Shown here: positions 20,544-59,470 of the stretch, piece after piece
How positions within the stretch are numbered: the stretch's first letter is position 1
How the letters are laid out: every line of letters begins with the position of its first letter
From: Escherichia coli
GTDB lineage: Bacteria; Pseudomonadota; Gammaproteobacteria; Enterobacterales; Enterobacteriaceae
DNA length: 64,000 nucleotides
Assembly: GCF_045037415.1 (NCBI RefSeq)
Contig: NZ_CP173438.1
Strand: one strand, 5' to 3'
The notes under the pieces: model-generated
What the model saw: only the letters and a program-made list of their open reading frames with translations
The model's database searches: none
Told to the model about the DNA's origin: nothing
Program-made: the position numbers and the translations under genes

Positions 20544-21299
<756 letters not shown>

Positions 21300-21344: not shown

Positions 21345-21378
21345 CAGGCCCCTGCAATTTCAACAGGGGCCTTTTTTT
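21345..21378 (+). terminator. intrinsic terminator after cutC
   Basis: Hairpin caggcccctgcaatttcaacaggggcc followed by a T7 run. Confidence 0.45.
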
Positions 21379-29542: not shown

Positions 29543-29597
29543 CGATACCTCCAGACGCCCAAGAGCGATACGAGCTTACATATTTCATGATATTAAA

Positions 29598-37024: not shown

Positions 37025-37325
37025 ATGATCATTTCAAGACCAAATATTGATTCTGCAATTTCGGGACGTTACACTGTCTCCGCACCTTATAAAGCGGGTG
37101 CCGGGATTGGCGTCCTGAAATTGTCAACGGCGATGTATGACGCGCCAGCGTCTTTTTTATCGTCCGCATTTGCTCACATCCAGATTATGGTGGGCTGGGC
37201 GGGGGCACCGAAAGGTGCGCCGGTTCTCCGTTGACGCCGGTTACGCCAACCCCGTCCAGTTCACCACCAGTGAAATTGGCGTTTCCGGTGGTGGAAGTTT
37301 TTCACTGTCAACGGAGGCTGCCATC
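37025..37325 (+). repeat. about 300-bp leader repeat, copy 1 (terminator-like hairpin plus GAAA-tetraloop stem)
   Basis: Direct repeat of 37685-37984; the first about 60 nt are near-identical (atattgattctgcaatt.cgggacgttacactg...accttataaagcgggtgccggg); contains gacgcgccagcgtc followed by T6, and gcaccGAAAggtgc. Confidence 0.5.
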
Positions 37326-37688
37326 ATGGCTACTGTCCTAACTTCCCCATTCCTAAAAATCGAAGTCGTCAACGGCAAGGCCGTTATTTTCTCCCTGCAT
37401 GTTGCCTGCCATTTCAAGCGCATGCACCAGAACATCGTTGACAAAATCGAGTATCTGAACTGCTCACGCGAGTTTTTTACCCGCAATTTCATACCGGGTA
37501 CTTATCACATCTACGGTGACTCCCTGCGTGGTTATTACATCACCCTTGATGGTCTGATGATGCTTCAGCTTGGGTTAAGTCTGCGCACAATGCGGTACTA
37601 CGAGAGCTGTATTGAAGCATTCCATGAGGCTGAAACCGTCCAGGGTCACTCCGCGTTCCGTCGTAATCAACGGGAGGTGCACCTATGA
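37326..37688 (+). CDS. Rha-family regulatory protein (short form)
   Basis: Start placed at MATVLTSPFLKIEVVNGKAVIFSLHVACHFKRMHQNIVDKIEYL... behind a GGAGG Shine-Dalgarno; the Rha N-terminal pattern parallels the next gene. Confidence 0.55.
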   Translation: MATVLTSPFLKIEVVNGKAVIFSLHVACHFKRMHQNIVDKIEYLNCSREFFTRNFIPGTYHIYGDSLRGYYITLDGLMMLQLGLSLRTMRYYESCIEAFHEAETVQGHSAFRRNQREVHL

Positions 37689-37984
37689 TCCGCCACCAGC
37701 ATATTGATTCTGCAATTCCGGGACGTTACACTGCTCAGGCACCTTATAAAGCGGGTGCCGGGCGTGGAAACCCGAAATTCAATATAGAGCACAACCGCGC
37801 TCATGCGGTTTTTTCGTGTCATGAGCATCGTTACACCCAAATTATGGTGGGGCGTGCAGGGCCAACTTCGGTTGGGCCGGGTTCTATGTTGACCGGTATT
37901 TCCACCCCTGTACGTCTCACCACCTATATGGTCGTGGAAAGCCTTGGTGGTGAGTTCATTGAATTCAACATAGGGGCTGTCACC
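37685..37984 (+). repeat. about 300-bp leader repeat, copy 2 (terminator-like hairpin plus UUCG-tetraloop stem)
   Basis: Direct repeat of 37025-37325; contains ccgcgctcatgcgg followed by T6, and ccaacTTCGgttgg; in frame with the downstream Rha ORF, so it could alternatively be coding. Confidence 0.45.
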
Positions 37985-43219: not shown

Positions 43220-44260
43220 GTGAACATTCAGGCAGTAGACATTTTTTGTGGTGCGGGGGGCTTAACTTTTGGGCTAAAAAAAGCCGGGATTGAGGTTTCT
43301 CATGGTATTGATATTGATGAATCCTGCCGTTTTGCTATTGAGAGCAATAATCCTTTAACGCAGTTCATTAATCAGTCAGTTACAGAACTGCAATCCTGCG
43401 ATGTGTCTGCTATGTTCAAGGAAGGAAATATTAGATTGCTTGCTGGATGTGCTCCTTGCCAACCGTTTTCCAAGTATCGTAATCCAAATAGCCGTAAAGA
43501 CGATACAAAGTGGCGTTTGTTATATGAGTTTCAAAGGCTTGTAAGTGATGTCATGCCAGAGCTTGTGACGATGGAGAATGTTCCTCAACTTAGAAACCAT
43601 AAGGTTTTTGAAGGGTTTGTTAGTGCATTAAAGACTCTTGGATATCATTTGTGGTACGACGTTGTAAGATGTTCTGAGTATGGCTTACCTCAAAATAGAC
43701 GTAGATTAATTCTAATTGGTTCCCAATTGGGGCCGATCAGCCTTGATCAAAAAAAAGTTAGCCGTAAAGTTACTGTTAAGGATGCTATTGGTAGGTTGCC
43801 AAAAGTAGGGGCAGGTGAGAAGCTGGAAAGCGATCCCTTGCATCGTTCGCCTAAATTGATGGATATCAATCTTAAACGAATCATGCATTCTTTACCTGGT
43901 GGTACGTGGGATGACTGGCCTGAAGAAATTAGAGCAGACTGTCATAAAAAGAATTCAGGTGCTACCTATAAAAGCGTTTATGGACGGATGGTTTGGGACG
44001 ATACTAGCCCTACGATAACTACCCAGTGTTATGGATATGGAAATGGACGATTTGGCCATCCTGAGCAAAATCGCGCCATAACTTTGCGTGAAGCTGCGAT
44101 TTTGCAATCCTTTCCAATGGATTATAAATTCCTTGACAAGGAGACGCCTTTTTCATTCCAAAAATTGGGGACAATGATTGGAAATGCTGTTCCCCCTATA
44201 ATTGGTCAGATAATAGGGGAAACATTTATCAGACATGTTGAGGGGATAAATACCCGTTAG
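43220..44260 (+). CDS. DNA (cytosine-5)-methyltransferase, Dcm family
   Basis: 346-aa ORF, GTG start; C5-MTase motifs I FCGAGG, IV PCQPFS, VI ENV, VIII QNRRR and X GNAV are all visible. Confidence 0.85.
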   Translation: MNIQAVDIFCGAGGLTFGLKKAGIEVSHGIDIDESCRFAIESNNPLTQFINQSVTELQSCDVSAMFKEGNIRLLAGCAPCQPFSKYRNPNSRKDDTKWRLLYEFQRLVSDVMPELVTMENVPQLRNHKVFEGFVSALKTLGYHLWYDVVRCSEYGLPQNRRRLILIGSQLGPISLDQKKVSRKVTVKDAIGRLPKVGAGEKLESDPLHRSPKLMDINLKRIMHSLPGGTWDDWPEEIRADCHKKNSGATYKSVYGRMVWDDTSPTITTQCYGYGNGRFGHPEQNRAITLREAAILQSFPMDYKFLDKETPFSFQKLGTMIGNAVPPIIGQIIGETFIRHVEGINTR

Positions 44261-44918
44261 AGGTAATATAATTTTCTGTTGAGTTGATTAATAAACGCAA
44301 ATATAGATCAATTCTTTCTGACCTCGATTTGACTTCTTCTAAAGGGTCTATTTGACCTTTTTTAGAAAAGCTGGTACTTCCATGTGCCAGCTCATTTCTG
44401 ATATCTTTAAGTAAATCTAAGTCAACACCATTTCTACACTCTGGTGAGTTTGCAACAGTTATTCCGTAAGCTTGTGTTATTTTGTGCAATACAGACTTGC
44501 AAACATTACCATTGAATTCTTTACGTATGTTTAATGAGGCTGAAATGATCCTTTTAGATATATCGGAACCAATTTTTTGATAAAGAGATTTTCCCGATTC
44601 ATTATCTGAAATGATACGGTGCAAGATATTTACTTGGAATTTCTCCCTGAGTGATGCGTAATTTACTTCATTATCTTGCAAATGGTCATAAATTGACTCA
44701 ATGCATCCTCTGGCAGTGTTTTCAACCTGATTGTACAGCATCATGTGCACGGATGATTTTAAAATGTTAACCCTAAGGGTATTTGATTCTATTTCATCTT
44801 TATGCGTTTGCTGATCTAACTGCTGAGTCTGAGCCTCTAAAGATGACGCAAGAGAAAGCAATTCCATAATATCTCTTGCTCTTTCTTCGTATTCATCTCT
44901 TAAATCAATCAAACTCAT
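44229..44918 (-). CDS. HEPN-domain protein (predicted RNase/nuclease), partner of the DUF262 protein
   Basis: 229-aa ORF; C-terminal Rx4H HEPN motif (DIRNELAHG); ATG 2 nt after the stop of the upstream DUF262 gene with an AGGA Shine-Dalgarno inside that gene's 3' end. Confidence 0.65.
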   Translation of the reverse strand: MSLIDLRDEYEERARDIMELLSLASSLEAQTQQLDQQTHKDEIESNTLRVNILKSSVHMMLYNQVENTARGCIESIYDHLQDNEVNYASLREKFQVNILHRIISDNESGKSLYQKIGSDISKRIISASLNIRKEFNGNVCKSVLHKITQAYGITVANSPECRNGVDLDLLKDIRNELAHGSTSFSKKGQIDPLEEVKSRSERIDLYLRLLINSTENYITSNGYLSPQHV

Positions 44919-44920
44919 AG

Positions 44921-46078
44921 TTACATTCCTAATAATTTATCTTTGACATAAAATATTCTGTTTTTGAGTTGGCTGGTGTTGTTGGCACTATCAGCAGTAA
45001 CTATGGTTTCAAATTCCTCCCCAAACAGCCAGTCTCCTACAGGAATAACCGGAGCCTGTAGATGTGGATTGGCTTTTAAGGCAAGAGCAGTTCCCACTGC
45101 TATGGCTTCGTATCTAGCACGGGGGGTGGTTTTGCTTGTTGGTGTCTTTTTAAACCCCATAGGGAAATGAGCATCTACAAAAGCAAGCATGCTTTCAAAA
45201 TCATGTTTAAATTTGTCTACATCTTGTTGTGTGACCCTTTCGGCCTGAACATTAAGATAATTGTCAATAAAAGGAGCGACATAACCCTTATAATTTTCTA
45301 AATCATTTAAGTATGCAAAAAATCTCAAAACTAACTCACGATGATCGCCATTCGAACGTTTCCGGTCTGATAATGGAGCTAGACTAGCGAAAAGTGGATT
45401 TGTTGAGCAAGGAGTCACAACATCCCTATAGAAAATTGAAGTGGCCGCATCTGAACCATGTCTAACCTCCATCGCTTCCAGTCTCTTAACACCTGAATTT
45501 ATTCTTTCGAATAAATCTCTTCTATGTTGCTCCTCAACATCACCTTTCAATTCAATAAATCTTAGTGATGCCCTTAAAAATCGCCTCTGGCGGCTAGCCA
45601 AAAGATCTGAAAATTTGAAGCCCTCTAAACTTTTGAGTTCTTTTAAGTCTTTCAATTCAAACTGATTGTTCCAAAAGTAGTAAATTGAGCGAATCCTTTG
45701 TGAACCGTCAATAATTTCTACACGACCATCCAACTCAGGATCTTCATTAAATACGTCGGAGATGTAGAGGTACGGGATTGGAAAATCTAATAATATACTT
45801 TCGATGAATCGAGAGGCTGTTTTGATATCCCATTTGTAATCGCGTTGATAATCAGGAATAAAAAGTTCGTTTTTGTCAGTTTCAAGATTATTGCCATACT
45901 TTTGTACAATTAATTCAACGGTCCATTCACGTACGTTGTATCCAATATTTCTCTGAGCAAGCCTAATCTCGTTGTCGGCAGAAGTGACCAAGGCTGCAAT
46001 TTCAGCTTTTTTTCTATTTTTCGCGTTTTCATCTTGAATCTGAGCAAGCTCTTCTTTGAGTTCTTTGAGTGTGGTCAT
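44921..46078 (-). CDS. DUF262 (ParB/Srx-like, GmrS-N-type) domain protein without an HNH/DUF1524 domain
   Basis: 385-aa ORF; DUF262 hallmarks FIPDYQRDYKW and IIDGSQR near the N-terminus; long helical C-terminal region with no nuclease motif. Confidence 0.75.
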   Translation of the reverse strand: MTTLKELKEELAQIQDENAKNRKKAEIAALVTSADNEIRLAQRNIGYNVREWTVELIVQKYGNNLETDKNELFIPDYQRDYKWDIKTASRFIESILLDFPIPYLYISDVFNEDPELDGRVEIIDGSQRIRSIYYFWNNQFELKDLKELKSLEGFKFSDLLASRQRRFLRASLRFIELKGDVEEQHRRDLFERINSGVKRLEAMEVRHGSDAATSIFYRDVVTPCSTNPLFASLAPLSDRKRSNGDHRELVLRFFAYLNDLENYKGYVAPFIDNYLNVQAERVTQQDVDKFKHDFESMLAFVDAHFPMGFKKTPTSKTTPRARYEAIAVGTALALKANPHLQAPVIPVGDWLFGEEFETIVTADSANNTSQLKNRIFYVKDKLLGM

Positions 46079-46679: not shown

Positions 46680-47420
46680 ATGGCTAATACTGTAAAAATA
46701 TCCAGTTGTGAGTTAATCAACGCCGACTGCCTGGAATTTATCCGGTCGTTACCCGAAAATTCTGTTGACCTGATAGTCACGGACCCGCCGTACTTTAAAG
46801 TGAAGCCTGAGGGCTGGGATAACCAGTGGAAGGGCGACGATGATTACCTGAAGTGGCTGGACCAGTGTCTGGCGCAGTTCTGGCGGGTGCTGAAACCTGC
46901 CGGAAGTCTTTACCTGTTCTGTGGTCATCGCCTGGCATCTGATATCGAAATCATGATGCGTGAACGCTTCAGTGTGCTGAACCATATTATCTGGGCGAAG
47001 CCGTCCGGACGCTGGAACGGATGCAACAAGGAAAGCCTGCGGGCGTATTTCCCCGCCACAGAGCGCATTCTGTTCGCGGAACATTATCAGGGGCCGTATC
47101 GTCCGAAAGATGCCGGGTATACGGCGAAGGGCAGTACGGCTGTGTCGGACAGGGCTTACATATTGCCAAAAAACTGCTTCCGTATATCCCTAATAACGCG
47201 GGGATCCTGCTGGTACCATGCTGTCGTGGTGGTTCGGCATTCACCCAGGGCACGGAGGGGACATTCAGCGAGTCCACGGGGGCCAGTCAGGATTCGGCTC
47301 GCTGGGGAGTGGGTAAGCCGTTATATCAGGATCTGCTTTTCCGCACGAAGGCAGCATTGCAGAAAAACCCGAAAAACGTTTTGCTGGCGATATGCTGGAT
47401 GCAGGGGGAATTCGATATGA
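46680..47420 (+). pseudogene. N6-adenine/N4-cytosine-type DNA methyltransferase, N-terminal fragment only (frame lost after about 140 codons)
   Basis: Motif IV TDPPYF and ...LNHIIWAKP... are present, but no motif I follows; the frame degenerates into low-complexity sequence while the overlapping frame becomes NanS-like. Confidence 0.45.
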
Positions 47421-48562
47421 CGAATGCCAGTTACGCCCAGCAGCCAGCAGCATTTCTTGCAATGGTACAGCAGTTCCGTGCTGACCTTGCCGGGCTGGCG
47501 GCGCAGTGTCACGGTGGAAGTCCGGCATCAGTCCCCTGGATTTGTGGCGACACGACATACGTGTGGAAACAAGAACACGGTACGCAATATGAAGTGGTAT
47601 ATGGTGCATATAAAGGTAAAGAATCCCAGCAGATTTATTTTGTTCCCTTTATGACCGATGGTAGCGGAGTTAATACACCGACAAACAACCCGTCAGAAGA
47701 TCCTGATATTGCCGGGTCTGGTTATTACGGTTCGGCATCCCGAACGAACAAAAACTGGGTATCATCAAATCGCCCGACGCATTTCAGCTCATGGGCGCGT
47801 CGTGGCATTATTCCCGATCGTATGGCAACTGCTATTCTGAACGTAGCCGGTCGCACCTTAGCCTTCATTAGTGGTAAGGCACCGGAAATCAAACCCTCGC
47901 CCGGCGGCGACACTCCATCGGGGCCGTCTGATGGTGACACATCCGTTCGTACAGTCTCCCTGCTGCCGACAGCCGGAGAGGCTGCTGCGCAGGGCTGGAC
48001 CATCACCGGCGGCAGTGTTGCGCTGGAAGATGGTGTGTTTAAGGTTACCAAGCAGAGCAATAAAACTTGGTCCCTGATGCATCCGGTGGATGACGCAGTC
48101 TCCCTGCTGACACGGGGTGGCAGACTGAGCTGTAAGTTTCGACTGTCAGGCGCACTGACCAACAACCAGTTCGGTCTGGGAATTTATCTGTGTACCGATG
48201 TAGCGTTACCTGACGTCGTGGCGATGACCGGGACTGGTAACCCGTTCCTGATGTCGTTCTTCACCCAGACCACAGACGGCAAACTGAATCTGATGCATCA
48301 CAGGAAAGCAGGAAACACAAAGTTGGGCGAGTTCGGGAATTACAGTAACGACTGGCAGACGCTGGAGCTGGTGTTCACCGCCGGCAGTGCCACGGTTACT
48401 CCGAAACTGAATGGAGTGGCTGGCCCGGCATTCCAGGTCATAAAAGACAGTCTGACACTGGGGCTGAATGCGCTGACGCTGACGGATATTACCAAAAATG
48501 CAGCGTATGGCGTTGAGATAGAAAGTCTGGTGCTGGAGATAAATGCACCAGCATCATCATAA
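47021..48562 (+). CDS. prophage NanS-like sialate O-acetylesterase (NanS-p type), apparently 5'-truncated
   Basis: Frame matches recalled YjhS/NanS from ...QYGCVGQGLHIAKKLLPYIPNNAGILLVPCCRGGSAFTQGTEGTFSE... onward, plus a C-terminal extension; the N-terminal GQSN-containing region was not seen. Confidence 0.55.
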   Translation: MQQGKPAGVFPRHRAHSVRGTLSGAVSSERCRVYGEGQYGCVGQGLHIAKKLLPYIPNNAGILLVPCCRGGSAFTQGTEGTFSESTGASQDSARWGVGKPLYQDLLFRTKAALQKNPKNVLLAICWMQGEFDMTNASYAQQPAAFLAMVQQFRADLAGLAAQCHGGSPASVPWICGDTTYVWKQEHGTQYEVVYGAYKGKESQQIYFVPFMTDGSGVNTPTNNPSEDPDIAGSGYYGSASRTNKNWVSSNRPTHFSSWARRGIIPDRMATAILNVAGRTLAFISGKAPEIKPSPGGDTPSGPSDGDTSVRTVSLLPTAGEAAAQGWTITGGSVALEDGVFKVTKQSNKTWSLMHPVDDAVSLLTRGGRLSCKFRLSGALTNNQFGLGIYLCTDVALPDVVAMTGTGNPFLMSFFTQTTDGKLNLMHHRKAGNTKLGEFGNYSNDWQTLELVFTAGSATVTPKLNGVAGPAFQVIKDSLTLGLNALTLTDITKNAAYGVEIESLVLEINAPASS

Positions 48563-50178: not shown

Positions 50179-50646
50179 ATGAACCGCGTACTGTGCGTGG
50201 TCATCATTGCCCTGCTGGTGGCCTGTGGTGCGCTTAGTCTGGGGCTGAATCATTACCGTGATAACGCCATAACCTACAAAGAGCAGCGCGATAAAAAAGT
50301 CAGTGAGCTGGAGCTGGCAAATGCAACCATTACTGATATGCAGCAGCGCCAGCGTGATGTTGCTGCACTTGATGCCAGATACTCGAGGGAATTAGCCGAT
50401 GCGAGAGCTGAAAATGAAACTCTTCGCGCTGACGTTGCCGCTGGTCACCGCAGCCTGCGGATCAACGCCACCTGTCCAGGTCCCGTGCGTGAAGCCACCG
50501 GCACCGCCCGCGTGGATAATGCAACCGGCCCCCAACTGGCAGACACCGTTACACGGGATTATTTCACCCTCAGAGAGCGGCTGATGACGATGCAGAAGCA
50601 ACTGGAAGGGGCACAGGACTATATCCGCACTCAGTGCCTGAAATAA
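50179..50646 (+). CDS. Rz: i-spanin Rz
   Basis: 155-aa ORF MNRVLCVVIIALLVACGALSLGLNHYRDNAITYK... closely resembles lambda Rz. Confidence 0.82.
   Translation: MNRVLCVVIIALLVACGALSLGLNHYRDNAITYKEQRDKKVSELELANATITDMQQRQRDVAALDARYSRELADARAENETLRADVAAGHRSLRINATCPGPVREATGTARVDNATGPQLADTVTRDYFTLRERLMTMQKQLEGAQDYIRTQCLK
50414..50584 (+). CDS. Rz1: o-spanin Rz1 (lipoprotein) embedded in the +1 frame of Rz
   Basis: MKLFALTLPLVTAACGS...CVKPPAPPAWIMQPAPNWQTPLHGIISPSE closely resembles lambda Rz1, including the lipobox cysteine and proline-rich region. Confidence 0.72.
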   Translation: MKLFALTLPLVTAACGSTPPVQVPCVKPPAPPAWIMQPAPNWQTPLHGIISPSESG

Positions 50647-51269
50647 GTTTTGCTGATGCGCGGTATTGTCGCCGTATCCCCGCATTAACAGAGACCGCAG
50701 CCCGACAGGGAGACTCCTCTGCGCGAGTGTGCGGGGATAATCAAAAACGATACACACCGGGGTTTACCGCGTTAACGGAGCGCGGCGTTGTCCCCTCATA
50801 GTCGCCTGTCCGGTGCGATGGTGGAAGAAGCCGGATGTTTATCACTATTAATTGATGACACAGAAATGGATTCATTGAATTTCAGCACGTTTTTGTATTC
50901 GTGTTATTGAACATCTGTTTATTTTACTTTTAACATATTGATAATAAAAAGAGCTGTAAATCTTTAGATGAGTCGATTTTGTCCGGGGAAGTTCAAATGG
51001 ATTTTATGCTGACGGTTTCTGGTGTGGTTATCCTGTCCATTGCTTATACTGCAGATAAATATGGCTGCCATTTGTTATCACGTATTGGCGCTTATTGTTC
51101 GTTGATGCTGATTTTCTCGTCGCTTTTTTTTGAGTAAGTTATATTAATTATAACAAATAATTTTCTGTGTTATTTTTTCAGGCTATCCCGTCAGAGGGGA
51201 AGCCTGTACTGCCAGGGAGCGAATGGAAAACTGATGTGTCCGGTAACTGCGTGTTCTGTGAACACCATG

Positions 51270-51455
51270 TTACTTAATTATGTAATTCATACCCGAACTC
51301 TCTGTTGACAGCCTTCTTCTGCAGGCTTCAATAACCCACGCTGAAAAGTTTCCTGAACCTTTCAGATCAAGAGCGATGTTAATTTGTTCAATCATCTGGT
51401 TTGGAAATCGGATGTTGCGGGTTGTTGTTCTGCGCGTTCTGTTCTTTGATGACAT
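51270..51455 (-). CDS. small Arc/ribbon-helix-helix-like DNA-binding protein
   Basis: 61-aa ORF; ...NIRFPNQMIEQINIALDLKG..NFSAWVIEACRRRL resembles the RHH pattern; lies in the lambda-like right-end region. Confidence 0.4.
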   Translation of the reverse strand: MSSKNRTRRTTTRNIRFPNQMIEQINIALDLKGSGNFSAWVIEACRRRLSTESSGMNYIIK

Positions 51456-51661
51456 AATGTTTCCCCATATTCAGTGTTGCTGATTTGTATTATCAGAAGT
51501 TGCTTTTACGTTAATTTGACGCAGATCAATTAATACGATACCTGCGTCATAATTGATTATTTCTCGTGGTTTGATGGCGTACACACATGTTGTGATAAAC
51601 CTTATATAGATGATAATCATTATCATTTCGTGGGTCCTTTCCGGCGATCCGACCGGTTACG

Positions 51662-51673
51662 GGGCGGCGACCT
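51662..51673 (+). other. cosN cohesive-end site (lambda-type 12-nt gggcggcgacct)
   Basis: Exact lambda cosN 12-mer, flanked upstream by ...gggtcctttccggcgatccgaccggttacg and downstream by cgcgggttttcgctatttatgaaaattt, both recalled lambda right-end and left-end sequences. Confidence 0.75.
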
Positions 51674-51842
51674 CGCGGGTTTTCGCTATTTATGAAAATT
51701 TTTAGGGAAAAATCAGATCCGTTCTTCTTCTTTTTAACTGATTGATTATCAATAGAATTTTAAAAATATAAAAGGATCTGACAAAGGCTGTTTTTGTTAG
51801 AAAACGCCATTTTCAGATCCTTTCTGGTTCCCGGGGGAGTGT

Positions 51843-52391
51843 ATGAACGTCAATAAGAAAAAACTGGCCGATATTTTTGGCGTTGATGTCAGGACCATCA
51901 CCGCCTGGCAGAGTCAGGGGTTACCACTAGTTTCTGGTGGAGGGAAAGGGACTGAATCAGTTTTTGATACAACTGCTGCCATTCAGTGGTATGCGCAGAG
52001 GGAAGCTGATATTGAAAACGAAAAACTCCGTAAAGAGATCGAGGATTTGAGGGCTGCCAGCGAATCAGACCTTCAGCCCGGCACCATTGATTACGAACGT
52101 TACCGACTGACGAAGGCACAGGCCGATGCACAGGAGCTGAAAAATGCTCGTGAGGAAGGCCTTGTCCTCGAGACGGAGTTATTTACCTACATCTTTCAGC
52201 GAGTGGCACAGAATATATCAGGGATCCTTGTCCGTGTCCCTCAGACACTGCAGCGTAAATACCCTGATATATCACCCGTACATCTTGATGCTGTGAAAAC
52301 TGAAATCGCGAAAGCATCCGATGTGGCTTCTGAAGCCGGTGAGAATGTGCGCAGGTGGATTGATGATTTCAGACGAACTGAGGGCGGCTAA
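51843..52391 (+). CDS. nu1: terminase small subunit Nu1
   Basis: 182-aa [39 protein letters not shown]... closely resembles lambda Nu1. Confidence 0.88.
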
Positions 52392-54291
52392 TTCTGCAGG
52401 AGCGATAGCAACCGGCCTCCTTGCGCTAAAAATTCCTGTCCCTCTGACGACAGTTCAGTGGGCAGATCGACATTATTACCTTCCGAAAGAGTCATCTTAC
52501 ACCCCGGGGCGGTGGGAAACACTGCCGTTTCAGGTTGCCATCATGAACAGCATGGGGAATGACCGGATCCGCACTGTTAATCTGATTAAATCTGCCCGTG
52601 TTGGTTATACAAAGATGTTGCTGGGAGTGGAGGCTTATTTTATTGAGCATAAATCACGCAACAGCCTTCTTTTCCAGCCCACGGATTCTGCTGCTGAAGA
52701 TTTTATGAAATCTCATGTGGAACCCACGATCAGGGATGTGCCGGTTTTACTCGATCTTGCACCGTGGTTTGGGCGTAAACATCGTGATAATACCCTCACG
52801 CTGAAACGTTTTTCATCGGGCGTGGGCTTCTGGTGCCTGGGCGGGGCTGCCGCTAAAAACTACCGTGAAAAATCCGTGGACGTGGTCTGCTATGACGAAC
52901 TTTCCTCGTTCGAACCGGATGTCGAAAAAGAGGGTTCGCCAACCCTGCTTGGGGATAAACGTATTGAGGGCTCTGTATGGCCCAAATCCATTCGCGGCTC
53001 GACGCCTAAAATCAAAGGCACCTGCCAGATCGAAAAAGCGGCCAACGAGTCGGCGCATTTCATGCGTTTTTATGTGCCCTGCCCACACTGTGGGGAGGAG
53101 CAGTATCTGAAATTTGGCGATGAATCCACGCCTTTTGGCCTTAAATGGGAGAAGGACAGCCCCGAAAGCGTTTTCTACCTCTGTGAACATCATGGCTGCG
53201 TGATCCATCAGTCTGAGCTTGACCAGAGCAACGGGCGGTGGATCTGTGAAAACACGGGGATGTGGACCCGTGACGGTCTGACGTTTTTCAGCGCCGCGGA
53301 TAATGAAATTCCGCCGCCGCGCTCCATCACGTTCCATATCTGGACGGCGTACAGTCCGTTCACCACCTGGGTACAGATAGTCTATGACTGGCTGGATGCA
53401 CTGAAAGATCCCAACGGCCTGAAAACCTTTGTGAACACCACGCTGGGCGAGACCTGGGAAGAGGCCGTGGGCGAAAAACTCGATCACCAGGTACTGATGG
53501 ATAAGGTCGTGCATTACACGGCGGCGGTGCCAGCCCGGGTGGTTTATCTGACGGCGGGCATTGACTCGCAGCGAAACCGTTTTGAGATGTATGTCTGGGG
53601 ATGGGCACCGGGAGAGGAAGCTTTTCTGGTGGATAAAATCATCATTATGGGCCGTCCCGATGAGGAAGAGACGCTGTTACGTGTGGATGCGGCGATCAAC
53701 AAAAAATACTGCCATGCAGACGGAACCGAAATGACCATTTCCCGTGTCTGCTGGGACACCGGGGGGATCGATGGTGAAATTGTCTATCAGAGGTCAAAAA
53801 AACACGGTGTTTTCCGGGTGCTGCCGGTAAAAGGCGCATCTGTCTATGGCAAGCCGGTGATCACCATGCCGAAAACCCGCAATCAGCGGGGCGTGTATCT
53901 GTGTGAAGTGGGGACGGACACCGCAAAAGAAATTCTCTATGCCCGTATGAAAGCCGATCCCACGCCTGCGGATGAAGCCACGTCGTATGCCATCCGTTTT
54001 CCTGATGATCCGGAGATTTTTTCGCAGACAGAGGCGCAGCAACTGGTCGCGGAAGAGCTTGTGGAGAAGTGGGAAAAAGGAAAGATGCGTCTGCTGTGGG
54101 ATAACAAAAAGCGGCGTAACGAAGCGCTGGACTGCCTGGTGTATGCCTATGCGGCATTACGTGTGTCCGTGCAACGCTGGCAGCTTGATCTGGCTGTACT
54201 GGCAAAATCCCGGGAAGAAGAGACGACCCGGCCAACCCTTAAAGAACTGGCAGCGAAGCTGTCCGGAGGAGTGAATGGTTACAGTCGCTGA
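52363..54291 (+). CDS. A: terminase large subunit A
   Basis: ORF 52321..54291 resembles lambda gpA throughout ([12 protein letters not shown]..., [14 protein letters not shown]..., [11 protein letters not shown]...); start placed at MISDEL, overlapping the Nu1 3' end. Confidence 0.9.
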
Positions 54292-54481
54292 ACTACAGGC
54301 GCTGCGTCAGGCGCGCCTTGATTTATTAACCGGTAAACGGGTGGTGTCTGTCCAGAAAGATGGTCGCAGAATTGAATATACGGCGGCTTCTCTGGATGAG
54401 CTTAACCGGGCGATCAATGATGCGGAGTCGGTACTGGGGACAACCCGACGTCGCCGTCGTCCGCTGGGAGTGAGGTTATGA
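54275..54481 (+). CDS. W: head-tail joining protein W
   Basis: 68-aa ORF ...LLTGKRVVSVQKDGRRIEYTAASL... resembles lambda gpW. Confidence 0.8.
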   Translation: MVTVAELQALRQARLDLLTGKRVVSVQKDGRRIEYTAASLDELNRAINDAESVLGTTRRRRRPLGVRL

Positions 54482-56070
54482 AACGAACGCCTGTCCTGAT
54501 TGATGTGAACGGCGTTCCGCTTCGTGAGAGTCTCAGCTACAACGGGAGCGGCGCAGGATTTGGCGGGCAAATGGCGGAGTGGTTGCCACCGGCGCAGAGT
54601 GCCGATGCGGCCCTGCTACCCGCGTTGCGTCTGGGGAATGCCCGGGCAGATGATCTGGTGCGCAATAACGGAATAGCGGCTAATGCGGTGGCTCTGCATA
54701 AGGATCACATTGTCGGGCATATGTTTCTGATCAGCTACCGTCCGAACTGGCGCTGGCTGGGGATGCGGGAGACCGCAGCAAAAAGCTTTGTCGATGAGGT
54801 GGAGGCGGCCTGGTCGGAATACGCCGAAGGGATGTTTGGTGAGATCGACGTGGAAGGAAAACGCACGTTCACGGAATTTATCCGTGAAGGTGTGGGCGTT
54901 CATGCGTTTAACGGCGAAATCTTTGTGCAGCCGGTCTGGGATACGGAAACCACGCAGTTATTCCGTACGCGTTTTAAAGCCGTGAGTCCGAAACGGGTGG
55001 ACACGCCTGGACACGGTATGGGGAACCGTTTTCTGCGGGCCGGTGTGGAGGTCGATCGATATGGCCGTGCCGTCGCGTACCATATTTGTGAGGACGATTT
55101 TCCGTTCTCTGGTAGTGGACGATGGGAACGGATCCCGCGTGAACTTCCCACCGGGCGTCCGGCCATGCTGCATATTTTCGAGCCGGTGGAGGACGGGCAG
55201 ACCCGTGGGGCTAATCAGTTTTACAGCGTCATGGAACGGCTGAAGATGCTCGATTCCCTGCAGGCAACACAGCTTCAGTCGGCCATAGTGAAGGCGATGT
55301 ATGCAGCGACGATTGAAAGTGAACTTGATACCGAAAAGGCCTTTGAATATATCGCCGGTGCGCCGCAGGGGCAGAAGGATAATCCGCTTATTAATATTCT
55401 GGATAAGTTCTCCACCTGGTATGACACGAATCACGTGACGCTGGGCGGTGTCAAAATTCCGCACCTTTTCCCCGGTGATGATCTGAAACTTCAGACCGCG
55501 CAGGATTCAGACAATGGATTTTCAGCGCTTGAACAGGCGCTGCTGCGGTATATCGCCGCCGGTCTTGGCGTTTCCTACGAACAGTTGTCCCGTGATTACT
55601 CGAAGGTCAGTTATTCAAGTGCCCGCGCCTCCGCCAATGAGTCGTGGCGCTATTTTATGGGGCGGCGAAAATTTATTGCGTCCCGGCTGGCCACGCAGAT
55701 GTTTTCCTGCTGGCTGGAAGAGGCACTTCTTCGGGGGATTATTCGTCCGCCACGGGCACGTTTTGATTTTTATCAGGCGCGATCAGCCTGGTCACGGGCT
55801 GAGTGGATTGGAGCCGGAAGAATGGCCATTGACGGGCTCAAGGAGGTTCAGGAATCAGTGATGCGCATTGAGGCCGGACTGAGCACGTATGAGAAAGAGC
55901 TGGCGCTGATGGGCGAGGATTATCAGGACATTTTCCGCCAGCAGGTCAGGGAATCTGCAGAGCGGGAAAAAGCCGGACTCTCACGTCCGGTGTGGATAGC
56001 GCAGGCGTATCAGCAGCAGATAGCGGAGAGTCGCAGGCCGGAAGAGGAGACAACACCACGTGAGACGTAA
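54478..56070 (+). CDS. B: portal protein B
   Basis: 530-aa ORF resembling lambda gpB (ADDLVRNNG..., FEPVEDGQTRGAN.FYSVME, AIVKAMYAATIESELDT...). Confidence 0.9.
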   Translation: MKRTPVLIDVNGVPLRESLSYNGSGAGFGGQMAEWLPPAQSADAALLPALRLGNARADDLVRNNGIAANAVALHKDHIVGHMFLISYRPNWRWLGMRETAAKSFVDEVEAAWSEYAEGMFGEIDVEGKRTFTEFIREGVGVHAFNGEIFVQPVWDTETTQLFRTRFKAVSPKRVDTPGHGMGNRFLRAGVEVDRYGRAVAYHICEDDFPFSGSGRWERIPRELPTGRPAMLHIFEPVEDGQTRGANQFYSVMERLKMLDSLQATQLQSAIVKAMYAATIESELDTEKAFEYIAGAPQGQKDNPLINILDKFSTWYDTNHVTLGGVKIPHLFPGDDLKLQTAQDSDNGFSALEQALLRYIAAGLGVSYEQLSRDYSKVSYSSARASANESWRYFMGRRKFIASRLATQMFSCWLEEALLRGIIRPPRARFDFYQARSAWSRAEWIGAGRMAIDGLKEVQESVMRIEAGLSTYEKELALMGEDYQDIFRQQVRESAEREKAGLSRPVWIAQAYQQQIAESRRPEEETTPRET

Positions 56071-57565
56071 TCTTTCACACATTATTGCCGCAGCATTCAA
56101 TGAACCGCTGCTTCTGGAGCCCGCCTATGCGCGGGTTTTCTTTTGCGCGCTCGGGCGCGAGATGGGGGCAGCAAGTCTTTCGGTACCACAACAGCAGGTA
56201 CAGCTTGATGCTCCCGGAATGCTGGCTGAAACGGACGAGTACATGGCCGGAGGTAAACGACCGGCCCGTGTTTACCGGGTGGTGAACGGTATTGCGGTAC
56301 TGCCGGTGAGCGGCACGCTGGTGCACCGGCTGGGGGGGATGCGGCCATTTTCCGGAATGACTGGCTATGACGGCATTGTCGCCTGTCTTCAGCAGGCAAT
56401 GGCAGATAGCCAGGTGCGGGGCATACTGCTGGACATTGACAGTCCGGGCGGGCAGGCCGCCGGCGCGTTTGACTGCGCTGACATGATTTACCGCCTCCGT
56501 CAGCAGAAGCCGGTCTGGGCACTGTGCAATGACACGGCCTGTTCTGCAGCCATGCTGCTGGCGTCGGCCTGCTCCCGACGGCTGGTTACCCAGACATCCC
56601 GTATCGGCTCCATTGGCGTGATGATGAGCCATGTCAGCTATGCCGGTCATCTGGCGCAGGCCGGTGTGGATATCACGCTGATTTATGCCGGGGCGCACAA
56701 GGTGGATGGCAATCAGTTTGAAGCGTTGCCGGCAGAGGTTCGCCAGGATATGCAGCAGCGGATTGATGCGGCGCACCGGATGTTTGCCGAAAAAGTGGCG
56801 ATGTATACCGGGTTGTCTGTGGATGCGGTCACGGGAACAGAGGCCGCCGTTTTTGAAGGTCAGTCCGGCATTGAGGCCGGGCTGGCGGATGAATTAATCA
56901 ATGCGTCGGATGCCATCAGTGTGATGGCCACGGCGCTGAACAGTAATGTCAGAGGAGGCACTATGCCGCAATTAACTGCAACGGAAGCCGCCGTGCAGGA
57001 GAACCAGCGAGTGATGGGGATCCTGACATGCCAGGAAGCGAAAGGACGTGAACAGCTTGCCACGATGCTGGCAGGGCAACAGGGCATGAGCGTTGAACAG
57101 GCCCGGGCGATTCTGGCCGCGGCGGCACCGCAGCAGCCGGTGGCATCCGCGCAGAGTGAAGCCGATCGCATTATGGCGTGTGAAGAAGCGAACGGTCGTG
57201 AACAACTGGCAGTAACGCTGGCGGCGATGCCGGAGATGACGGTGGAAAAAGCCCGCCCGATCCTGGCTGCTTCACCGCAGGCGAATGCCGGACCATCACT
57301 CCGTGATCAGATCATGGCCCTGGATGAGGCAAAAGGGGCTGAGGCGCAGGCTGAACAGCTGGCTGCCTGCCCGGGAATGACCGTGGAGAGCGCCCGGGCT
57401 GTGCTGGCTGCGGGATCAGGTAAGGCAGAACCGGTCTCTGCATCCACAACCGCCCTGTTTGAACATTTCATGGCGAACCATTCACCGGCTGCGGTCCAGG
57501 GGGGCGTGTCACAGGCGTCAGAAGACGGTGATGCGGACGTGAAAATGCTCATGGCCATGCCATGA
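56060..57565 (+). CDS. C: head maturation protease C (S49 family) with nested scaffold (Nu3-like) C-terminal region containing tandem repeats
   Basis: 501-aa ORF; N-terminal S49/ClpP-like protease region; C-terminal three roughly 38-aa tandem repeats (I[ML]xxEEAxGREQLAxxLAxxxxMTVExARxILAA). Confidence 0.82.
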   Translation: MRRNLSHIIAAAFNEPLLLEPAYARVFFCALGREMGAASLSVPQQQVQLDAPGMLAETDEYMAGGKRPARVYRVVNGIAVLPVSGTLVHRLGGMRPFSGMTGYDGIVACLQQAMADSQVRGILLDIDSPGGQAAGAFDCADMIYRLRQQKPVWALCNDTACSAAMLLASACSRRLVTQTSRIGSIGVMMSHVSYAGHLAQAGVDITLIYAGAHKVDGNQFEALPAEVRQDMQQRIDAAHRMFAEKVAMYTGLSVDAVTGTEAAVFEGQSGIEAGLADELINASDAISVMATALNSNVRGGTMPQLTATEAAVQENQRVMGILTCQEAKGREQLATMLAGQQGMSVEQARAILAAAAPQQPVASAQSEADRIMACEEANGREQLAVTLAAMPEMTVEKARPILAASPQANAGPSLRDQIMALDEAKGAEAQAEQLAACPGMTVESARAVLAAGSGKAEPVSASTTALFEHFMANHSPAAVQGGVSQASEDGDADVKMLMAMP

Positions 57566-57601
57566 AGTCAGTGCTGAACATCAATACGAGGTTTTAACAA
57601 T

Positions 57602-57949
57602 ATGGTGACGAAAACCATCACTGAACAGCGTGCGGAAGTACGTATTTTTGCCGGTAATGATCCGGCTCACACCGCCACAGGCAGCAGCGGGATTTCCTCG
57701 GCAACACCGGCACTGACACCCCTGATGCTGGATGGGGCCACCGGGAAACTGGTGGTCTGGGACGGACAGAAAGCCGGTAGTGCGGTTGGCATACTGGTAC
57801 TGCCGCTTGAAGGCACAGAGGCGGTGCTGACCTATTACAAGTCGGGGACCTTTGCGACGGAGGCAATCCGCTGGCCTGAAAGTGTGGATGAACACAAAAA
57901 GGCCAACGCCTTTACCGGCAGTGCCCTGAGTCACGCGGCGCTGCCGTAA
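57602..57949 (+). CDS. D: head decoration protein D
   Basis: 115-aa ORF ...NDPAHTATGSSG...TPLMLD...KLVVWDG...AVGIL...YKSGTF... resembles lambda gpD. Confidence 0.85.
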   Translation: MVTKTITEQRAEVRIFAGNDPAHTATGSSGISSATPALTPLMLDGATGKLVVWDGQKAGSAVGILVLPLEGTEAVLTYYKSGTFATEAIRWPESVDEHKKANAFTGSALSHAALP

Positions 57950-58006
57950 CACGTTATCAGGCCACCGCGTTGGCCTGACTGATTTCTTAATGAAAGGAAC
58001 TGATTT

Positions 58007-59035
58007 ATGGGATTGTTTACGACCCGCCAGTTACTCGGTTATACCGAACAAAAAGTTAAATTCCGTGCGCTGTTTCTGGAGCTGTTTTTCCGCCGTACGG
58101 TGAATTTCCACACCGAAGAGGTGATGCTGGACAAAATTACCGGAAAAACGCCGGTGGCGGCCTATGTCTCCCCGATCGTTGAAGGAAAAGTGCTTCGCCA
58201 TCGCGGTGGTGAAACCCGCGTGTTACGTCCGGGCTACGTCAAGCCCAAACACGAATTTAATTACCAGCAGGCGGTTGAGCGCCTTCCTGGTGAAGATCCG
58301 GCTCAGCTGAACGACCCGGCCTACCGTCGTCTGCGTATCATTACCGATAACCTCAAACAGGAAGAGCACGCCATTGTCCAGGTGGAAGAAATGCAGGCGG
58401 TGAATGCCGTGCTGTATGGCAAATACACCATGGAAGGGGAACAGTTTGACACGGTCGAGGTGGATTTCGGACGCTCTGAAGGAAATAACATTGAGCAGGC
58501 CGACGGTAAAAAATGGTCTGAGCAGGACCGTGATACGTTTGATCCGACGCATGATATTGACCTTTACTGCGATCAGGCCAGCGGTCTTGTAAATATTGCC
58601 ATTATGGACGGTACGGTCTGGCGTCTGCTGAATGGCTTTAAGCTGTTCCGCGAAAAACTGGATACCCGTCGCGGCTCAAATTCACAACTCGAAACGGCAG
58701 TGAAAGACCTGGGAGCGGTGGTGTCTTTCAAAGGGTATTACGGTGATCTGGCCATTGTGGTGGCGAAAACGTCTTATGTGGCAGACGACGGTACCGAAAA
58801 ACGTTATCTGCCGGTGGGCACACTGGTCCTGGGGAATACGGCAGCAGAGGGCATTCGTTGCTATGGTGCCATTCAGGATGCGCAGGCGTTGTCCGAAGGT
58901 GTGGTGGCCTCTTCCCGTTATCCGAAACACTGGCTGACTGTGGGCGATCCGGCCCGTGAATTCACCATGACGCAGTCCGCACCGCTGATGGTGCTGCCGG
59001 ATCCGGATGAGTTTGTGGTGGTGCAGGTGAAATAA
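58007..59035 (+). CDS. E: major capsid protein E
   Basis: 342-aa ORF resembling lambda gpE (YVSPIV.G.V.R.RGG, PGYVKPKHE, TRRGSNS.LETAVKDLG, TTGDPAREFTM.QSAPLM). Confidence 0.9.
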   Translation: MGLFTTRQLLGYTEQKVKFRALFLELFFRRTVNFHTEEVMLDKITGKTPVAAYVSPIVEGKVLRHRGGETRVLRPGYVKPKHEFNYQQAVERLPGEDPAQLNDPAYRRLRIITDNLKQEEHAIVQVEEMQAVNAVLYGKYTMEGEQFDTVEVDFGRSEGNNIEQADGKKWSEQDRDTFDPTHDIDLYCDQASGLVNIAIMDGTVWRLLNGFKLFREKLDTRRGSNSQLETAVKDLGAVVSFKGYYGDLAIVVAKTSYVADDGTEKRYLPVGTLVLGNTAAEGIRCYGAIQDAQALSEGVVASSRYPKHWLTVGDPAREFTMTQSAPLMVLPDPDEFVVVQVK

Positions 59036-59086
59036 TCCGTGAGCGGGGGCGAAATGCCCCCGTGTCTTTTTTCACAGGAGGCTGAG

Positions 59087-59470
59087 ATGGCAACAAAAGA
59101 AGAAAATCTGAATCGTCTTCGTCAACTGGCTGGCCTGCTGGGGCGCGAGGCGGATATGTCGGGGAGTGCTGCGGATATTGCGCAACGTGTGTCTGAGTGG
59201 GAAGAGGAGCTTGCTGTTTCCCCGGAGGGCATTATGCACTCTGATGAGAGCGGGGCTGATCAAAATCACACAGACGATGGTGAGCAGTTGAACAACACGG
59301 ATGCTCCGGATGATGTTAAAGCCGTCCGGGTACGGAAGTGCCTGCAAGTAATGGGGTATTGCCCGGAGACAGGTCGTCCCGTTGAGCTGGCGTTACGGGG
59401 TATGCGTGTTCTGGTGCCATCATCACTGGCAACGGCCATGATACAGCACGGAACGGCTGAATATGCGTGA
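59087..59470 (+). CDS. DNA-packaging protein FI-like
   Basis: ORF 59039..59470; start placed at MATKEENLNRL... behind an AGGAGG Shine-Dalgarno; positional equivalent of lambda FI with weak similarity. Confidence 0.5.
   Translation: MATKEENLNRLRQLAGLLGREADMSGSAADIAQRVSEWEEELAVSPEGIMHSDESGADQNHTDDGEQLNNTDAPDDVKAVRVRKCLQVMGYCPETGRPVELALRGMRVLVPSSLATAMIQHGTAEYA

What the first reader, a model, noticed from the sequence alone, without database searches (positions are those of the whole stretch)
51300..51680. Lambda-type cos site and right-end sequence identify the packaging mechanism
The exact lambda cosN 12-mer gggcggcgacct (51662-51673) is embedded in flanks that match recalled lambda right-end and left-end sequence, followed by Nu1 and A. 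The phage therefore packages by cos cleavage with 12-nt 5' overhangs and has a lambda-like late region joined to non-lambda early and cargo modules, which is useful for predicting virion genome ends and mosaic breakpoints.
Basis: partly seen in the sequence, partly recalled or inferred. Interest (0 to 1): 0.25.

Follow-up and report, generated by a model that had tools for sequence, protein, structure and literature searches.

The report
Lambda-like prophage cos packaging site
This is the DNA-packaging (cos) site of a lambda-family prophage in an E. coli chromosome; it is textbook in kind, but its cutting site matches lambda while its terminase-binding part and binding protein are of the Salmonella Gifsy-1 type.

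Summary
GGGCGGCGACCT occurs once, at 51662-51673 (+). The 30 bp before it match the lambda right end at 28/30, and the 41 bp from it match the lambda left end at 41/41. cosQ (GGGTCCT, 51632-51638) and the 16-bp cosN core are identical to lambda. Intact Nu1-family and gpA-family terminase genes follow, then W, portal and head genes.

The window is E. coli chromosome, 99.995% identical to strain THO-003, with a roughly 51-kb prophage inserted in yecE.

The label "lambda-type" needs refining, because cos lies on a three-way mosaic junction:
- Upstream DNA is lambda-like (86.5%).
- cosB and the TerS DNA-binding domain are Gifsy-1-like.
- The rest of TerS, TerL (95.8% aa) and the head genes are phage-21-like (92.6% nt).

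cosB keeps the R3-I1-R2-R1 layout, but its R core is TCAGATCC. Lambda has GTTTCC and phage 21 has TGTCGG. TerS carries T20/A21/S24 at or beside the known specificity positions. Across 86 loci, helix type and R core partition perfectly.

The predicted mechanism is cos cleavage giving 12-nt 5' overhangs, probably with a packaging-initiation specificity that is neither lambda's nor 21's. This is an ordinary, well-understood kind of feature and of low interest.

The parts
51270..51455 (-). Small DUF3950 / YlcI-YnfO family ORF (61 aa). It is the last gene before the right genome end and the counterpart of the DUF3950 ORF annotated at the right end of phage 434.
   Evidence: Pfam DUF3950 E 9.2e-19. 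PGAP annotates it as 'YlcI/YnfO family protein'. The 434 record annotates the equivalent ORF.
51321..51661 (+). Right-end segment homologous to lambda 48169-48502. This is the lambda-type arm of the mosaic.
   Evidence: 86.5% identity over 341 nt to lambda, with no blastn match to the phage 21 right end over this stretch. Megablast gives 88% to many lambda-like phages.
51632..51638 (+). cosQ (GGGTCCT), the packaging-termination subsite, at -30 to -24 from the top-strand nick.
   Evidence: Same sequence and same offset as the cosQ features annotated in the 434 and 21 records. GGGTCCTTTCC is also conserved in relatives whose cosN differs.
51660..51675 (.). cosN core, CG|GGGCGGCGACCT|CG. The predicted top-strand nick is between 51661 and 51662 and the bottom-strand nick between 51673 and 51674. 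This gives 12-nt 5' cohesive ends covering 51662-51673.
   Evidence: 16/16 identical to lambda, 434 and 21. The 12-mer is unique in the window. The definition of cosN is taken from PMC9026076.
51679..51711 (.). I2 spacer, AT-rich, left-end bp 18-50, between cosN and cosB.
   Evidence: Identical to lambda up to bp 41, then follows the 21/Gifsy-1 form. The extent of I2 is taken from PMC4856287.
51711..51730 (+). cosB R3, the predicted critical TerS binding site (AATCAGATCCGTTCTTCTTC; core TCAGATCC = left-end bp 52-59).
   Evidence: Direct repeat with R1 at a spacing of 100 nt. Same position as R3 annotated at bp 50-65 in 434 and 21. The core covaries with the TerS helix.
51735..51747 (-). cosB I1, the predicted IHF bending site (AATCAATCAGTTA, a perfect WATCAANNNNTTR match).
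   Evidence: One of only 3 consensus matches in 64 kb. It lies at left-end bp 74-86, exactly the coordinates annotated for I1 in the 434 and 21 records.
51762..51783 (-). cosB R2, a TerS binding site in inverted orientation (reverse complement TTGTCAGATCCTTTTATATT; core at 51774-51781).
   Evidence: Inverted repeats I1 and I2 pair it with R1 and R3. The position matches R2 annotated at bp 107-123 in 434 and 21.
51811..51830 (+). cosB R1, an accessory TerS binding site (TTTCAGATCCTTTCTGGTTC).
   Evidence: Direct repeat of R3 at 83% over 18 nt. AGATCCKTTCT occurs only at these two places in the window. The position matches R1 at bp 150-166 in 434 and 21.
51843..52391 (+). Terminase small subunit (TerS, Nu1 family, 182 aa). 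The N-terminal winged-HTH domain is of Gifsy-1 type and the C-terminal TerL-binding part is of phage 21 type.
   Evidence: Pfam Phage_Nu1 E 1.6e-86. Amino-acid identity is 82% to 21 gp1, 81% to Gifsy-1 TerS and 56% to lambda Nu1. The best PDB match is 7LXS, whose sequence equals Gifsy-1 TerS residues 1-55.
52363..54291 (+). Terminase large subunit (TerL, gpA family, 642 aa), with ATPase and endonuclease domains. It overlaps the TerS gene by 29 nt, as in phage 21.
   Evidence: Pfam GpA_ATPase and GpA_nuclease. Identity is 95.8% to 21 gp2 over 642 aa and 67.5% to lambda gpA. The PGAP gene call has the same coordinates.
54275..56070 (+). gpW-like head-tail joining protein (54275-54481) and lambda-family portal (54478-56070). 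The portal is the docking partner of the terminase-DNA complex.
   Evidence: Pfam gpW E 1.2e-22 and Phage_portal_2 E 6.1e-100.

Best explanation
Window 51632-51830 is the complete cos site (cosQ, cosN, I2, and cosB made of R3-I1-R2-R1) of a lambda-family prophage inserted in yecE of an E. coli chromosome.

The inferred mechanism follows lambda biochemistry. TerS dimers (gene 51843-52391) bind the TCAGATCC-type R sites, with IHF bending the DNA at I1 so that R3 and R2 face each other. This anchors TerL (52363-54291) on cosN. TerL nicks the top strand between 51661 and 51662 and the bottom strand between 51673 and 51674. The result is virion DNA with 12-nt 5' overhangs: 5'-GGGCGGCGACCT at the left end and its complement at the right end. 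cosQ directs the terminating cut at the next cos on the concatemer.

The site is a natural chimera. cosQ, cosN and the right-end flank are lambda-type. cosB and the TerS DNA-binding domain are Gifsy-1-type. The TerS C-terminus, TerL and the head genes are phage-21-type. Recognition for packaging initiation is therefore most likely of the Gifsy-1 class and distinct from both lambda and 21.

Shown here: sequence identity, subsite layout, intact genes, and covariation between the TerS helix and the R core. Inferred: binding, nicking positions, specificity, and whether the prophage is active.
For: - The 12-mer is unique in the window.
- The junction alignment gives 28/31 before the nick and 41/41 after it against lambda, and cosQ GGGTCCT sits at the same offset as annotated in 434 and 21.
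- R3 and R1 are direct repeats 100 nt apart, with R2 inverted between them.
- A perfect IHF consensus lies at bp 74-86, the annotated I1 position.
- Pfam assigns Nu1, gpA ATPase, gpA nuclease, gpW and portal.
- TerS and TerL are full length: TerL is 642 aa and 95.8% identical to 21 gp2.
- Among 86 loci with 49 distinct upstream sequences, TerS helices of the form RT[IV][TS]xWQ go only with AGATCC sites, nearly all arranged two forward and one reverse. RTIERWQS goes only with TGTCGG, and RTIQNWQE only with GTTTCC.
- The differing positions coincide with, or lie next to, the published specificity determinants: TerS residues 20 and 24, and R3 bp 56, 58 and 59 (PMC4669245; PMC9026076).
- Published work describes Gifsy-1 as a lambda-like phage with an R3-I1-R2-R1 cosB.
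- Sliding identity shows Gifsy-1 is the best match over 51700-51960 and phage 21 from about 51960 onward.
Against: - There is no experimental evidence for this prophage: no virion end sequencing and no induction data were found.
- In the near-identical strain THO-003 the J tail-tip gene, outside the window, is annotated as frameshifted, and the prophage is about 51 kb. By my own recollection that is near the upper packaging limit of lambda-size heads, so the element may not produce infectious particles on its own.
- The distinct-specificity claim rests on covariation among related sequences and on analogy. N15 terminase packages lambda DNA despite different R sites, so cross-recognition cannot be excluded.
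- R2 departs from the R3/R1 consensus after the core: TTTTA in place of the TTCT found in R3 and R1.
Confidence: 0.88

Rival explanations
1. The cos site is a relic in a defective or cryptic prophage. The sequence is intact but is never cleaved in nature by its own phage. At most it is used when a co-resident lambdoid phage with a compatible terminase supplies missing functions.
For: J is annotated as frameshifted in THO-003, and there are several pseudogenes in the cargo region at window 46680-48562. The prophage is about 51 kb. The genomes that carry it hold 3 matching places each, meaning other lambdoid prophages are present.
Against: Every cos subsite and every packaging gene within the window is intact and full length. 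A frameshift in J would prevent infectivity, but it would not prevent cos cleavage or head filling. The J gene of the window's own source strain was not seen.
Confidence: 0.3
2. Packaging specificity is simply lambda's or 21's. On this view the differences in the R core and in the TerS helix are neutral drift within one functional class.
For: R3 bp 57-69 (TCCGTTCTTCTTC) are identical to lambda, and bp 58 and 59 are C and C as in lambda. S24 is shared with phage 21. N15 terminase packages lambda DNA despite different R sites.
Against: The partition of helix type against R core is perfect across 86 loci, and it holds in lineages whose cosN and flanks differ. bp 54-56 are AGA here, against GTT in lambda and GTG in 21. 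bp 56 is a proven discrimination position. Residue 20 is T here, against Q in lambda and E in 21.
Confidence: 0.2
3. The 12-mer is a chance occurrence and the region is not a packaging site.
For: 17 of 100 shuffles gave at least one match when 1 mismatch was allowed.
Against: 69 of 72 contiguous positions around the nick match lambda, and the site has cosQ, the cosB architecture and adjacent terminase genes.
Confidence: 0.01

Closest known systems
Bacteriophage lambda cos (cosQ-cosN-cosB; Nu1/A terminase)
   Same: cosQ is identical, as are the 16-bp cosN core and left-end bp 1-41. The subsite order and spacing are the same (R3 near bp 50-65, I1 at bp 74-86, R2 inverted, R1 near bp 150-166). 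The right-end flank with the DUF3950 ORF is 86.5% identical. Gene order Nu1-A-W-B-C-D-E is the same.
   Different: The R core is TCAGATCC rather than GCGTTTCC. TerS is only 56% identical, with T20/A21/S24 where lambda has Q20/N21/E24. TerL is 67.5% identical and the head genes about 65-69% at nucleotide level.
Bacteriophage 21 cos and terminase (gp1/gp2)
   Same: cosQ and cosN are identical. TerL is 95.8% identical. The TerS C-terminal region and the 29-nt TerS/TerL gene overlap are the same. The 7.5 kb of head genes are 92.6% identical. S24 of TerS is shared.
   Different: The R core in 21 is (C/A)TGTCGG. The TerS helix is RTIERWQS in 21 and RTITAWQS here. The phage 21 right-end flank is unrelated upstream of about -70.
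Salmonella phage Gifsy-1 cos and TerS (DNA-binding domain structure PDB 7LXS)
   Same: The same class of R sites: R3 CCAGATCCGTTCTTCTT, an inverted GGATCTG, and R1 GCAGATCCTTTCC. The recognition helix is nearly identical (RTVTAWQSQ against RTITAWQSQ). Gifsy-1 is the best nucleotide match across cosB and the TerS N-terminal domain.
   Different: The Gifsy-1 cohesive end is GGGCGGCAGCGT, differing from lambda at bp 8, 9 and 11. Its TerS is shorter (164 aa) with a different C-terminus. Overall nucleotide identity is only 59-80% in this segment and about 73% across the head genes.

Membership tests
Lambda-like cos site (12-nt 5' cohesive-end packaging site, sensu Feiss) | [quoted passage not shown] | tested here: met
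   12/12 identical, and the 16-bp core CGGGGCGGCGACCTCG is identical to lambda, 434 and 21.
Lambda-like cos site (12-nt 5' cohesive-end packaging site, sensu Feiss) | The 7-bp cosQ upstream of cosN | tested here: met
   GGGTCCT at 51632-51638, -30 to -24 from the nick, as annotated in 434 and 21.
Lambda-like cos site (12-nt 5' cohesive-end packaging site, sensu Feiss) | A complex cosB: three R sites with R2 inverted, and an IHF site between R3 and R2 | tested here: met
   R3 and R1 are direct repeats, R2 is inverted between them, and a perfect IHF consensus lies at bp 74-86.
Lambda-like cos site (12-nt 5' cohesive-end packaging site, sensu Feiss) | Nu1-family TerS and gpA-family TerL genes immediately downstream | tested here: met
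   Pfam PF07471, PF05876 and PF20454, all far above their cut-offs.
Lambda-like cos site (12-nt 5' cohesive-end packaging site, sensu Feiss) | Terminase actually nicks here, giving 12-nt 5' overhangs in virion DNA | not testable with these tools
   This needs end sequencing of virion DNA or an in vitro cos-cleavage assay.
Lambda packaging specificity (cosB-lambda / Nu1-lambda) | R sites with a CGTTTCC core, including the T:A pair at bp 56 | tested here: not met
   GTTTCC does not occur in the 150 nt upstream of TerS. bp 54-56 are AGA.
Lambda packaging specificity (cosB-lambda / Nu1-lambda) | TerS recognition helix with Q20 and E24 | tested here: not met
   The window TerS has T20 and S24. The determinants are taken from PMC4669245.
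Phage 21 packaging specificity (cosB-21 / gp1) | R sites with a (C/A)TGTCGG core, including the G:C pair at bp 56 and G at bp 59 | tested here: not met
   TGTCGG does not occur. bp 56 is A and bp 59 is C.
Phage 21 packaging specificity (cosB-21 / gp1) | TerS recognition helix RTIERWQS (E20, R21, S24) | tested here: not met
   The window has T20 and A21. Only S24 is shared.
Gifsy-1-type cosB / TerS class | AGATCC-core R sites arranged two forward and one reverse upstream of TerS | tested here: met
   Window counts are (2,1), the same as Gifsy-1 and 41 other loci.
Gifsy-1-type cosB / TerS class | TerS recognition helix RT(I/V)TAWQSQ | tested here: met
   RTITAWQSQ here and RTVTAWQSQ in Gifsy-1. 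PDB 7LXS is the best structural-database match, E 5.9e-28.
Gifsy-1-type cosB / TerS class | A functional packaging specificity distinct from lambda and 21 | not testable with these tools
   I found no helper-packaging data for Gifsy-1-type cos. The claim is inferred from covariation only.

The most novel reading that the evidence does not exclude
The TCAGATCC R sites together with the T20 TerS helix may define a separate packaging-initiation specificity of the Gifsy-1 type, one that neither lambda nor 21 terminase recognises. Because this prophage joins it to a lambda-identical cosQ and cosN and a 21-type TerL, it would be a natural domain-swap experiment. It would show that cosB plus the TerS DNA-binding domain is an independently exchangeable specificity cassette. 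The R3/R1 fusion variant seen in one relative (L036) would show how a simple one-R cosB, like that of N15, can arise by a single recombination.
Probability: 0.6. Interest if true: 0.25.

Novelty: new member of a known kind. Interest (0 to 1): 0.13.

Why it matters
In practical terms, the finding fixes the predicted virion genome ends: the left end starts at 51662 with a 12-nt 5' overhang. It also fixes the packaging strategy. A cos phage packages unit-length genomes, so it should perform little generalised transduction.

The finding also locates mosaic breakpoints exactly at cos:
- lambda-type DNA up to 51661;
- Gifsy-1-type DNA from about 51700 to 51960;
- phage-21-type DNA from there onward.

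For packaging specialists this is a modest extra example that cosN, cosB with the TerS DNA-binding domain, and the TerS C-terminus with TerL reassort as separate modules. It does not open a new question.

Tried and rejected
- **att core.** I looked for an att core repeat between the yecE/int junction (window about 28.0-28.5 kb) and the yecE remnant 15.2 kb beyond the window in THO-003. Nothing longer than 8-14 nt turned up, so the prophage length is only approximate (51.0-51.1 kb).
- **Rfam.** A whole-window scan at gathering thresholds found no RNA family in the cos region.
- **Promoters and terminators.** The scan of 50600-51900 gave counts no higher than shuffles.
- **tRNAs.** None were found in the window.
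- **Literature.** Searches for the PDB codes 7LXS, 7LWR and 7LW0, and for induction of a yecE prophage in this lineage, returned nothing relevant.
- **Closest isolated phage.** Megablast of cosB plus TerS against isolated phages found no close match, at best 87% over part of the query. No sequenced isolate in that collection carries this exact cassette.
- **PICI or cos-satellite site.** I considered and rejected this, because the site is followed by its own full terminase and head genes.

Full report
**1. Observation.** The 12-mer GGGCGGCGACCT occurs once in the 64-kb window, at 51662-51673 (+). Taken alone this is weak evidence, because 17 of 100 shuffles gave a match when one mismatch was allowed. 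I therefore fetched the ends of lambda (NC_001416), 434 (OL657226) and 21 (OL657228), joined each right end to its left end, and aligned the junctions to the window. Window 51631-51661 matches the last 31 nt of lambda at 28/31. Window 51662-51702 matches lambda bases 1-41 at 41/41. Upstream, 51321-51661 is 86.5% identical to lambda 48169-48502. This stretch includes a 61-aa DUF3950/YlcI-family ORF on the minus strand at 51270-51455.

**2. Genomic context.** The window is E. coli chromosome, 99.995% identical to strain THO-003 (NZ_AP022525.1 2186754-2250753). Of 5426 complete E. coli genomes, 161 carry at least 80% of the 50900-52900 segment.

Host genes (otsBA, flhDC, mot, che, flhBAE, argS, torYZ, cmoAB, yecN) run up to a truncated yecE. 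A prophage begins at the integrase gene (28230-29543, minus strand). Its gene order is:
- int, xis and small early genes;
- a LexA-family repressor, Rha and Ash proteins;
- a DnaC-like ATPase and a DnaB-like helicase;
- a Q-family antiterminator;
- cargo: a Dcm-type methyltransferase, a HEPN-like nuclease with a DUF262 protein, and gene fragments;
- holin, lysozyme and Rz;
- cos;
- TerS, TerL, W, portal, protease, decoration protein, capsid protein, FI, FII, Z, U, V, G, T and H.

In THO-003 the prophage continues about 15.2 kb past the window end to the yecD side, for a total of about 51 kb. There its J gene is annotated as frameshifted.

**3. Anatomy of cos.** Left-end bp 1 corresponds to window 51662.
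- **cosQ:** GGGTCCT at 51632-51638, which is -30 to -24. This is the same sequence and offset as the cosQ features annotated in the 434 and 21 records.
- **cosN:** the 16-bp core CG|GGGCGGCGACCT|CG at 51660-51675, identical to lambda, 434 and 21.
- **I2:** the AT-rich spacer at bp 18-50 is lambda-identical up to bp 41.
- **R3 and R1:** TCAGATCCGTTCTTCTTC at 51713-51730 (R3) and TCAGATCCTTTCTGGTTC at 51813-51830 (R1). They are direct repeats exactly 100 nt apart.
- **R2:** an inverted copy lies between them, with core GGATCTGA at 51774-51781.
- **I1:** AATCAATCAGTTA on the minus strand at 51735-51747 is a perfect match to the IHF consensus WATCAANNNNTTR. It is one of only three such matches in the window. 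It sits at bp 74-86, exactly the coordinates annotated for I1 in 434 and 21.

This is the published complex cosB layout, R3-I1-R2-R1 with R2 inverted (PMC4669245; PMC9026076).

**4. The terminase.** TerS (51843-52391, 182 aa) matches Pfam Phage_Nu1 at E 1.6e-86. TerL matches GpA_ATPase and GpA_nuclease. The TerL start favoured by PGAP, and by comparison with phage 21, is 52363. That gives 642 aa and a 29-nt overlap with the TerS gene, as in 21.

| Protein | vs phage 21 | vs Gifsy-1 | vs lambda |
|---|---|---|---|
| TerS | 82% (gp1) | 81% | 56% (Nu1) |
| TerL | 95.8% (gp2) | not compared | 67.5% (gpA) |

(Values.) No isolated phage in the INPHARED collection carries a closer TerS than 21 or Gifsy-1. 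From my own knowledge of lambda gpA, the Walker A stretch (KSARVGY), the YDE Walker B stretch and the nuclease AGIDSQ stretch can be read in the ORF translation. I did not test these motifs separately.

**5. "Lambda-type" is only partly accurate.** The R core differs between phages:

| Phage | R core | TerS recognition helix (residues 17-24) |
|---|---|---|
| Window | TCAGATCC | RTITAWQS |
| Lambda | GCGTTTCC | RTIQNWQE |
| Phage 21 | (C/A)TGTCGG | RTIERWQS |

 At R3, bp 54-56 are AGA here, GTT in lambda and GTG in 21. bp 58-59 are CC here, as in lambda, and CG in 21.

Published genetics identify TerS residues 20 and 24, and R3 bp 56, 58 and 59, as the determinants of lambda-versus-21 discrimination (PMC4669245; PMC9026076). 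So this prophage differs from both reference specificities at, or directly beside, the positions that matter.

**6. Covariation.** I collected 80 relatives of this TerS from IMG/VR and added lambda, 434, 21, Gifsy-1 and SerU-LTIIb. The 150 nt upstream of TerS gave 49 distinct sequences. The partition is perfect:
- Helices RT[IV][TS]xWQ (46 loci including the window and Gifsy-1) carry AGATCC. In 42 of them it is arranged two forward and one reverse. They never carry TGTCGG.
- Helices RTIERWQS (39 loci including 21) carry TGTCGG and never AGATCC.
- Lambda and 434 carry GTTTCC.

The pairing holds in lineages whose cohesive-end sequences and flanks are quite different. Examples are Gifsy-1 (GGGCGGCAGCGT), L035 and L037 (GGGCGGCGAACC), and the L059 and SerU-LTIIb group, whose cosN is unrelated. 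The helix and the R core therefore travel together while cosN reassorts. These sequences are related by descent, so the count is not a probability. The pattern is nevertheless what a protein-DNA recognition pair predicts.

Gifsy-1 itself has R3 CCAGATCCGTTCTTCTT, an inverted GGATCTG, R1 GCAGATCCTTTCC and helix RTVTAWQSQ. The window's cosB and TerS N-terminal domain therefore belong to the Gifsy-1 class. The PDB holds a TerS fragment, 7LXS, whose sequence equals Gifsy-1 TerS residues 1-55. It sits alongside fragments matching phage 21 (7LWR) and lambda (7LW0, 1J9I). 7LXS is the window's best PDB match.

**7. Mosaic map.** Local blastn of the window against complete lambda, 21 and Gifsy-1, together with a 60-nt sliding identity across cos, gave:
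- 28.2-48.7 kb (early and cargo region): no similarity to any of the three. The only exception is a 200-nt stretch at 70% to Gifsy-1 that overlaps the isrK/C4 RNA region at 37.1-37.3 kb.
- 50242-50624 (Rz): about 80% to lambda and 21.
- 51321-51661: lambda 86.5%.
- 51632-51700: all three are similar.
- 51700-51960 (cosB plus the TerS DNA-binding domain): Gifsy-1 is best at 59-80%, against 29-68% for lambda and 21.
- About 51960 to 59208: phage 21, 92.6% overall.
- Tail genes: about 78-83% to both lambda and 21.

cos is therefore itself a recombination junction between three modules.

**8. Mechanism.** This part is inferred from lambda biochemistry as summarised.
1. [quoted passage not shown]
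2. This anchors TerL, which nicks cosN 12 bp apart.
3. The cohesive ends separate and the complex on the cosB-bearing end docks on the portal.
4. ATP-driven translocation proceeds until the next cos.
5. There cosQ and cosN direct the terminating cut.

The predicted virion DNA starts at 51662 with the 5' overhang GGGCGGCGACCT and ends at 51661 on the top strand. It is a circular permutation of the prophage map.

**9. Rival explanations.**
- **Relic cos in a defective prophage.** I put this at about 0.3. It is compatible with the anatomy and changes only whether the site is used in practice.
- **Specificity equal to lambda's or 21's.** About 0.2.
- **Chance occurrence.** Excluded.

**10. Verdict.** This is a textbook kind of feature in an unstudied prophage, so I rate it a new member of a known kind, with low interest. 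The one addition is that packaging recognition is probably of the Gifsy-1 type rather than lambda's. The site also illustrates modular exchange within cos and terminase.

Noticed in passing
window 37082-37927: Two tandem copies of an isrK Hfq-binding RNA followed by a C4 antisense RNA (Rfam, all above gathering scores). They lie within the ash/Rha-type early genes and resemble a duplicated P1/P7 immI-like antirepressor control module inside a lambdoid prophage.
   Followed up: no
window 43220-46078: A Dcm-type cytosine methyltransferase (+) faces a HEPN-like nuclease and a DUF262 protein (-), between Q and the lysis genes. The DUF262 protein hits PADLOC NsnA (5.9e-46) and PD-T4-2_A (4.4e-27), which suggests an anti-phage defence cargo. 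The HEPN-like protein had no PADLOC hit.
   Followed up: partly
L036 (IMGVR_UViG_2529293040_000025), 260 nt upstream of TerS: A relative with identical cosQ, cosN and TerS has R3 fused directly to R1. This is an exact 100-bp deletion that removes I1 and R2 and leaves a single-R cosB reminiscent of phage N15. It could be a real recombination product or an assembly collapse.
   Followed up: no
L091 3697-7169 and 12617-14516 (THO-003, beyond the window end): The prophage's gpJ tail-tip gene is annotated as frameshifted in THO-003. A reverse-transcriptase gene and a SLATT-domain gene, which look like a defence pair, sit next to the tail-fibre assembly gene near attR.
   Followed up: no
window 46680-48562: PGAP annotates two gene fragments between the defence cargo and the holin gene: an N-terminal piece of a DNA methyltransferase and a C-terminal piece of a DUF6645 protein. 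This suggests a past deletion or rearrangement in the late-operon cargo region.
   Followed up: no
window 51415-51428: TTGCGGGTTGTTGT inside the DUF3950 ORF fits the TTGYN6TTGY CII-binding consensus. It aligns with a site annotated as a CII binding site in the phage 434 record. Its function is unknown and it may be coincidental.
   Followed up: no
window 21071-21378 and 9123-9200: Host small RNAs MicL (371 bits, within or after cutC) and C0465 were detected by Rfam in the chromosomal part of the window. These are ordinary E. coli features.
   Followed up: no
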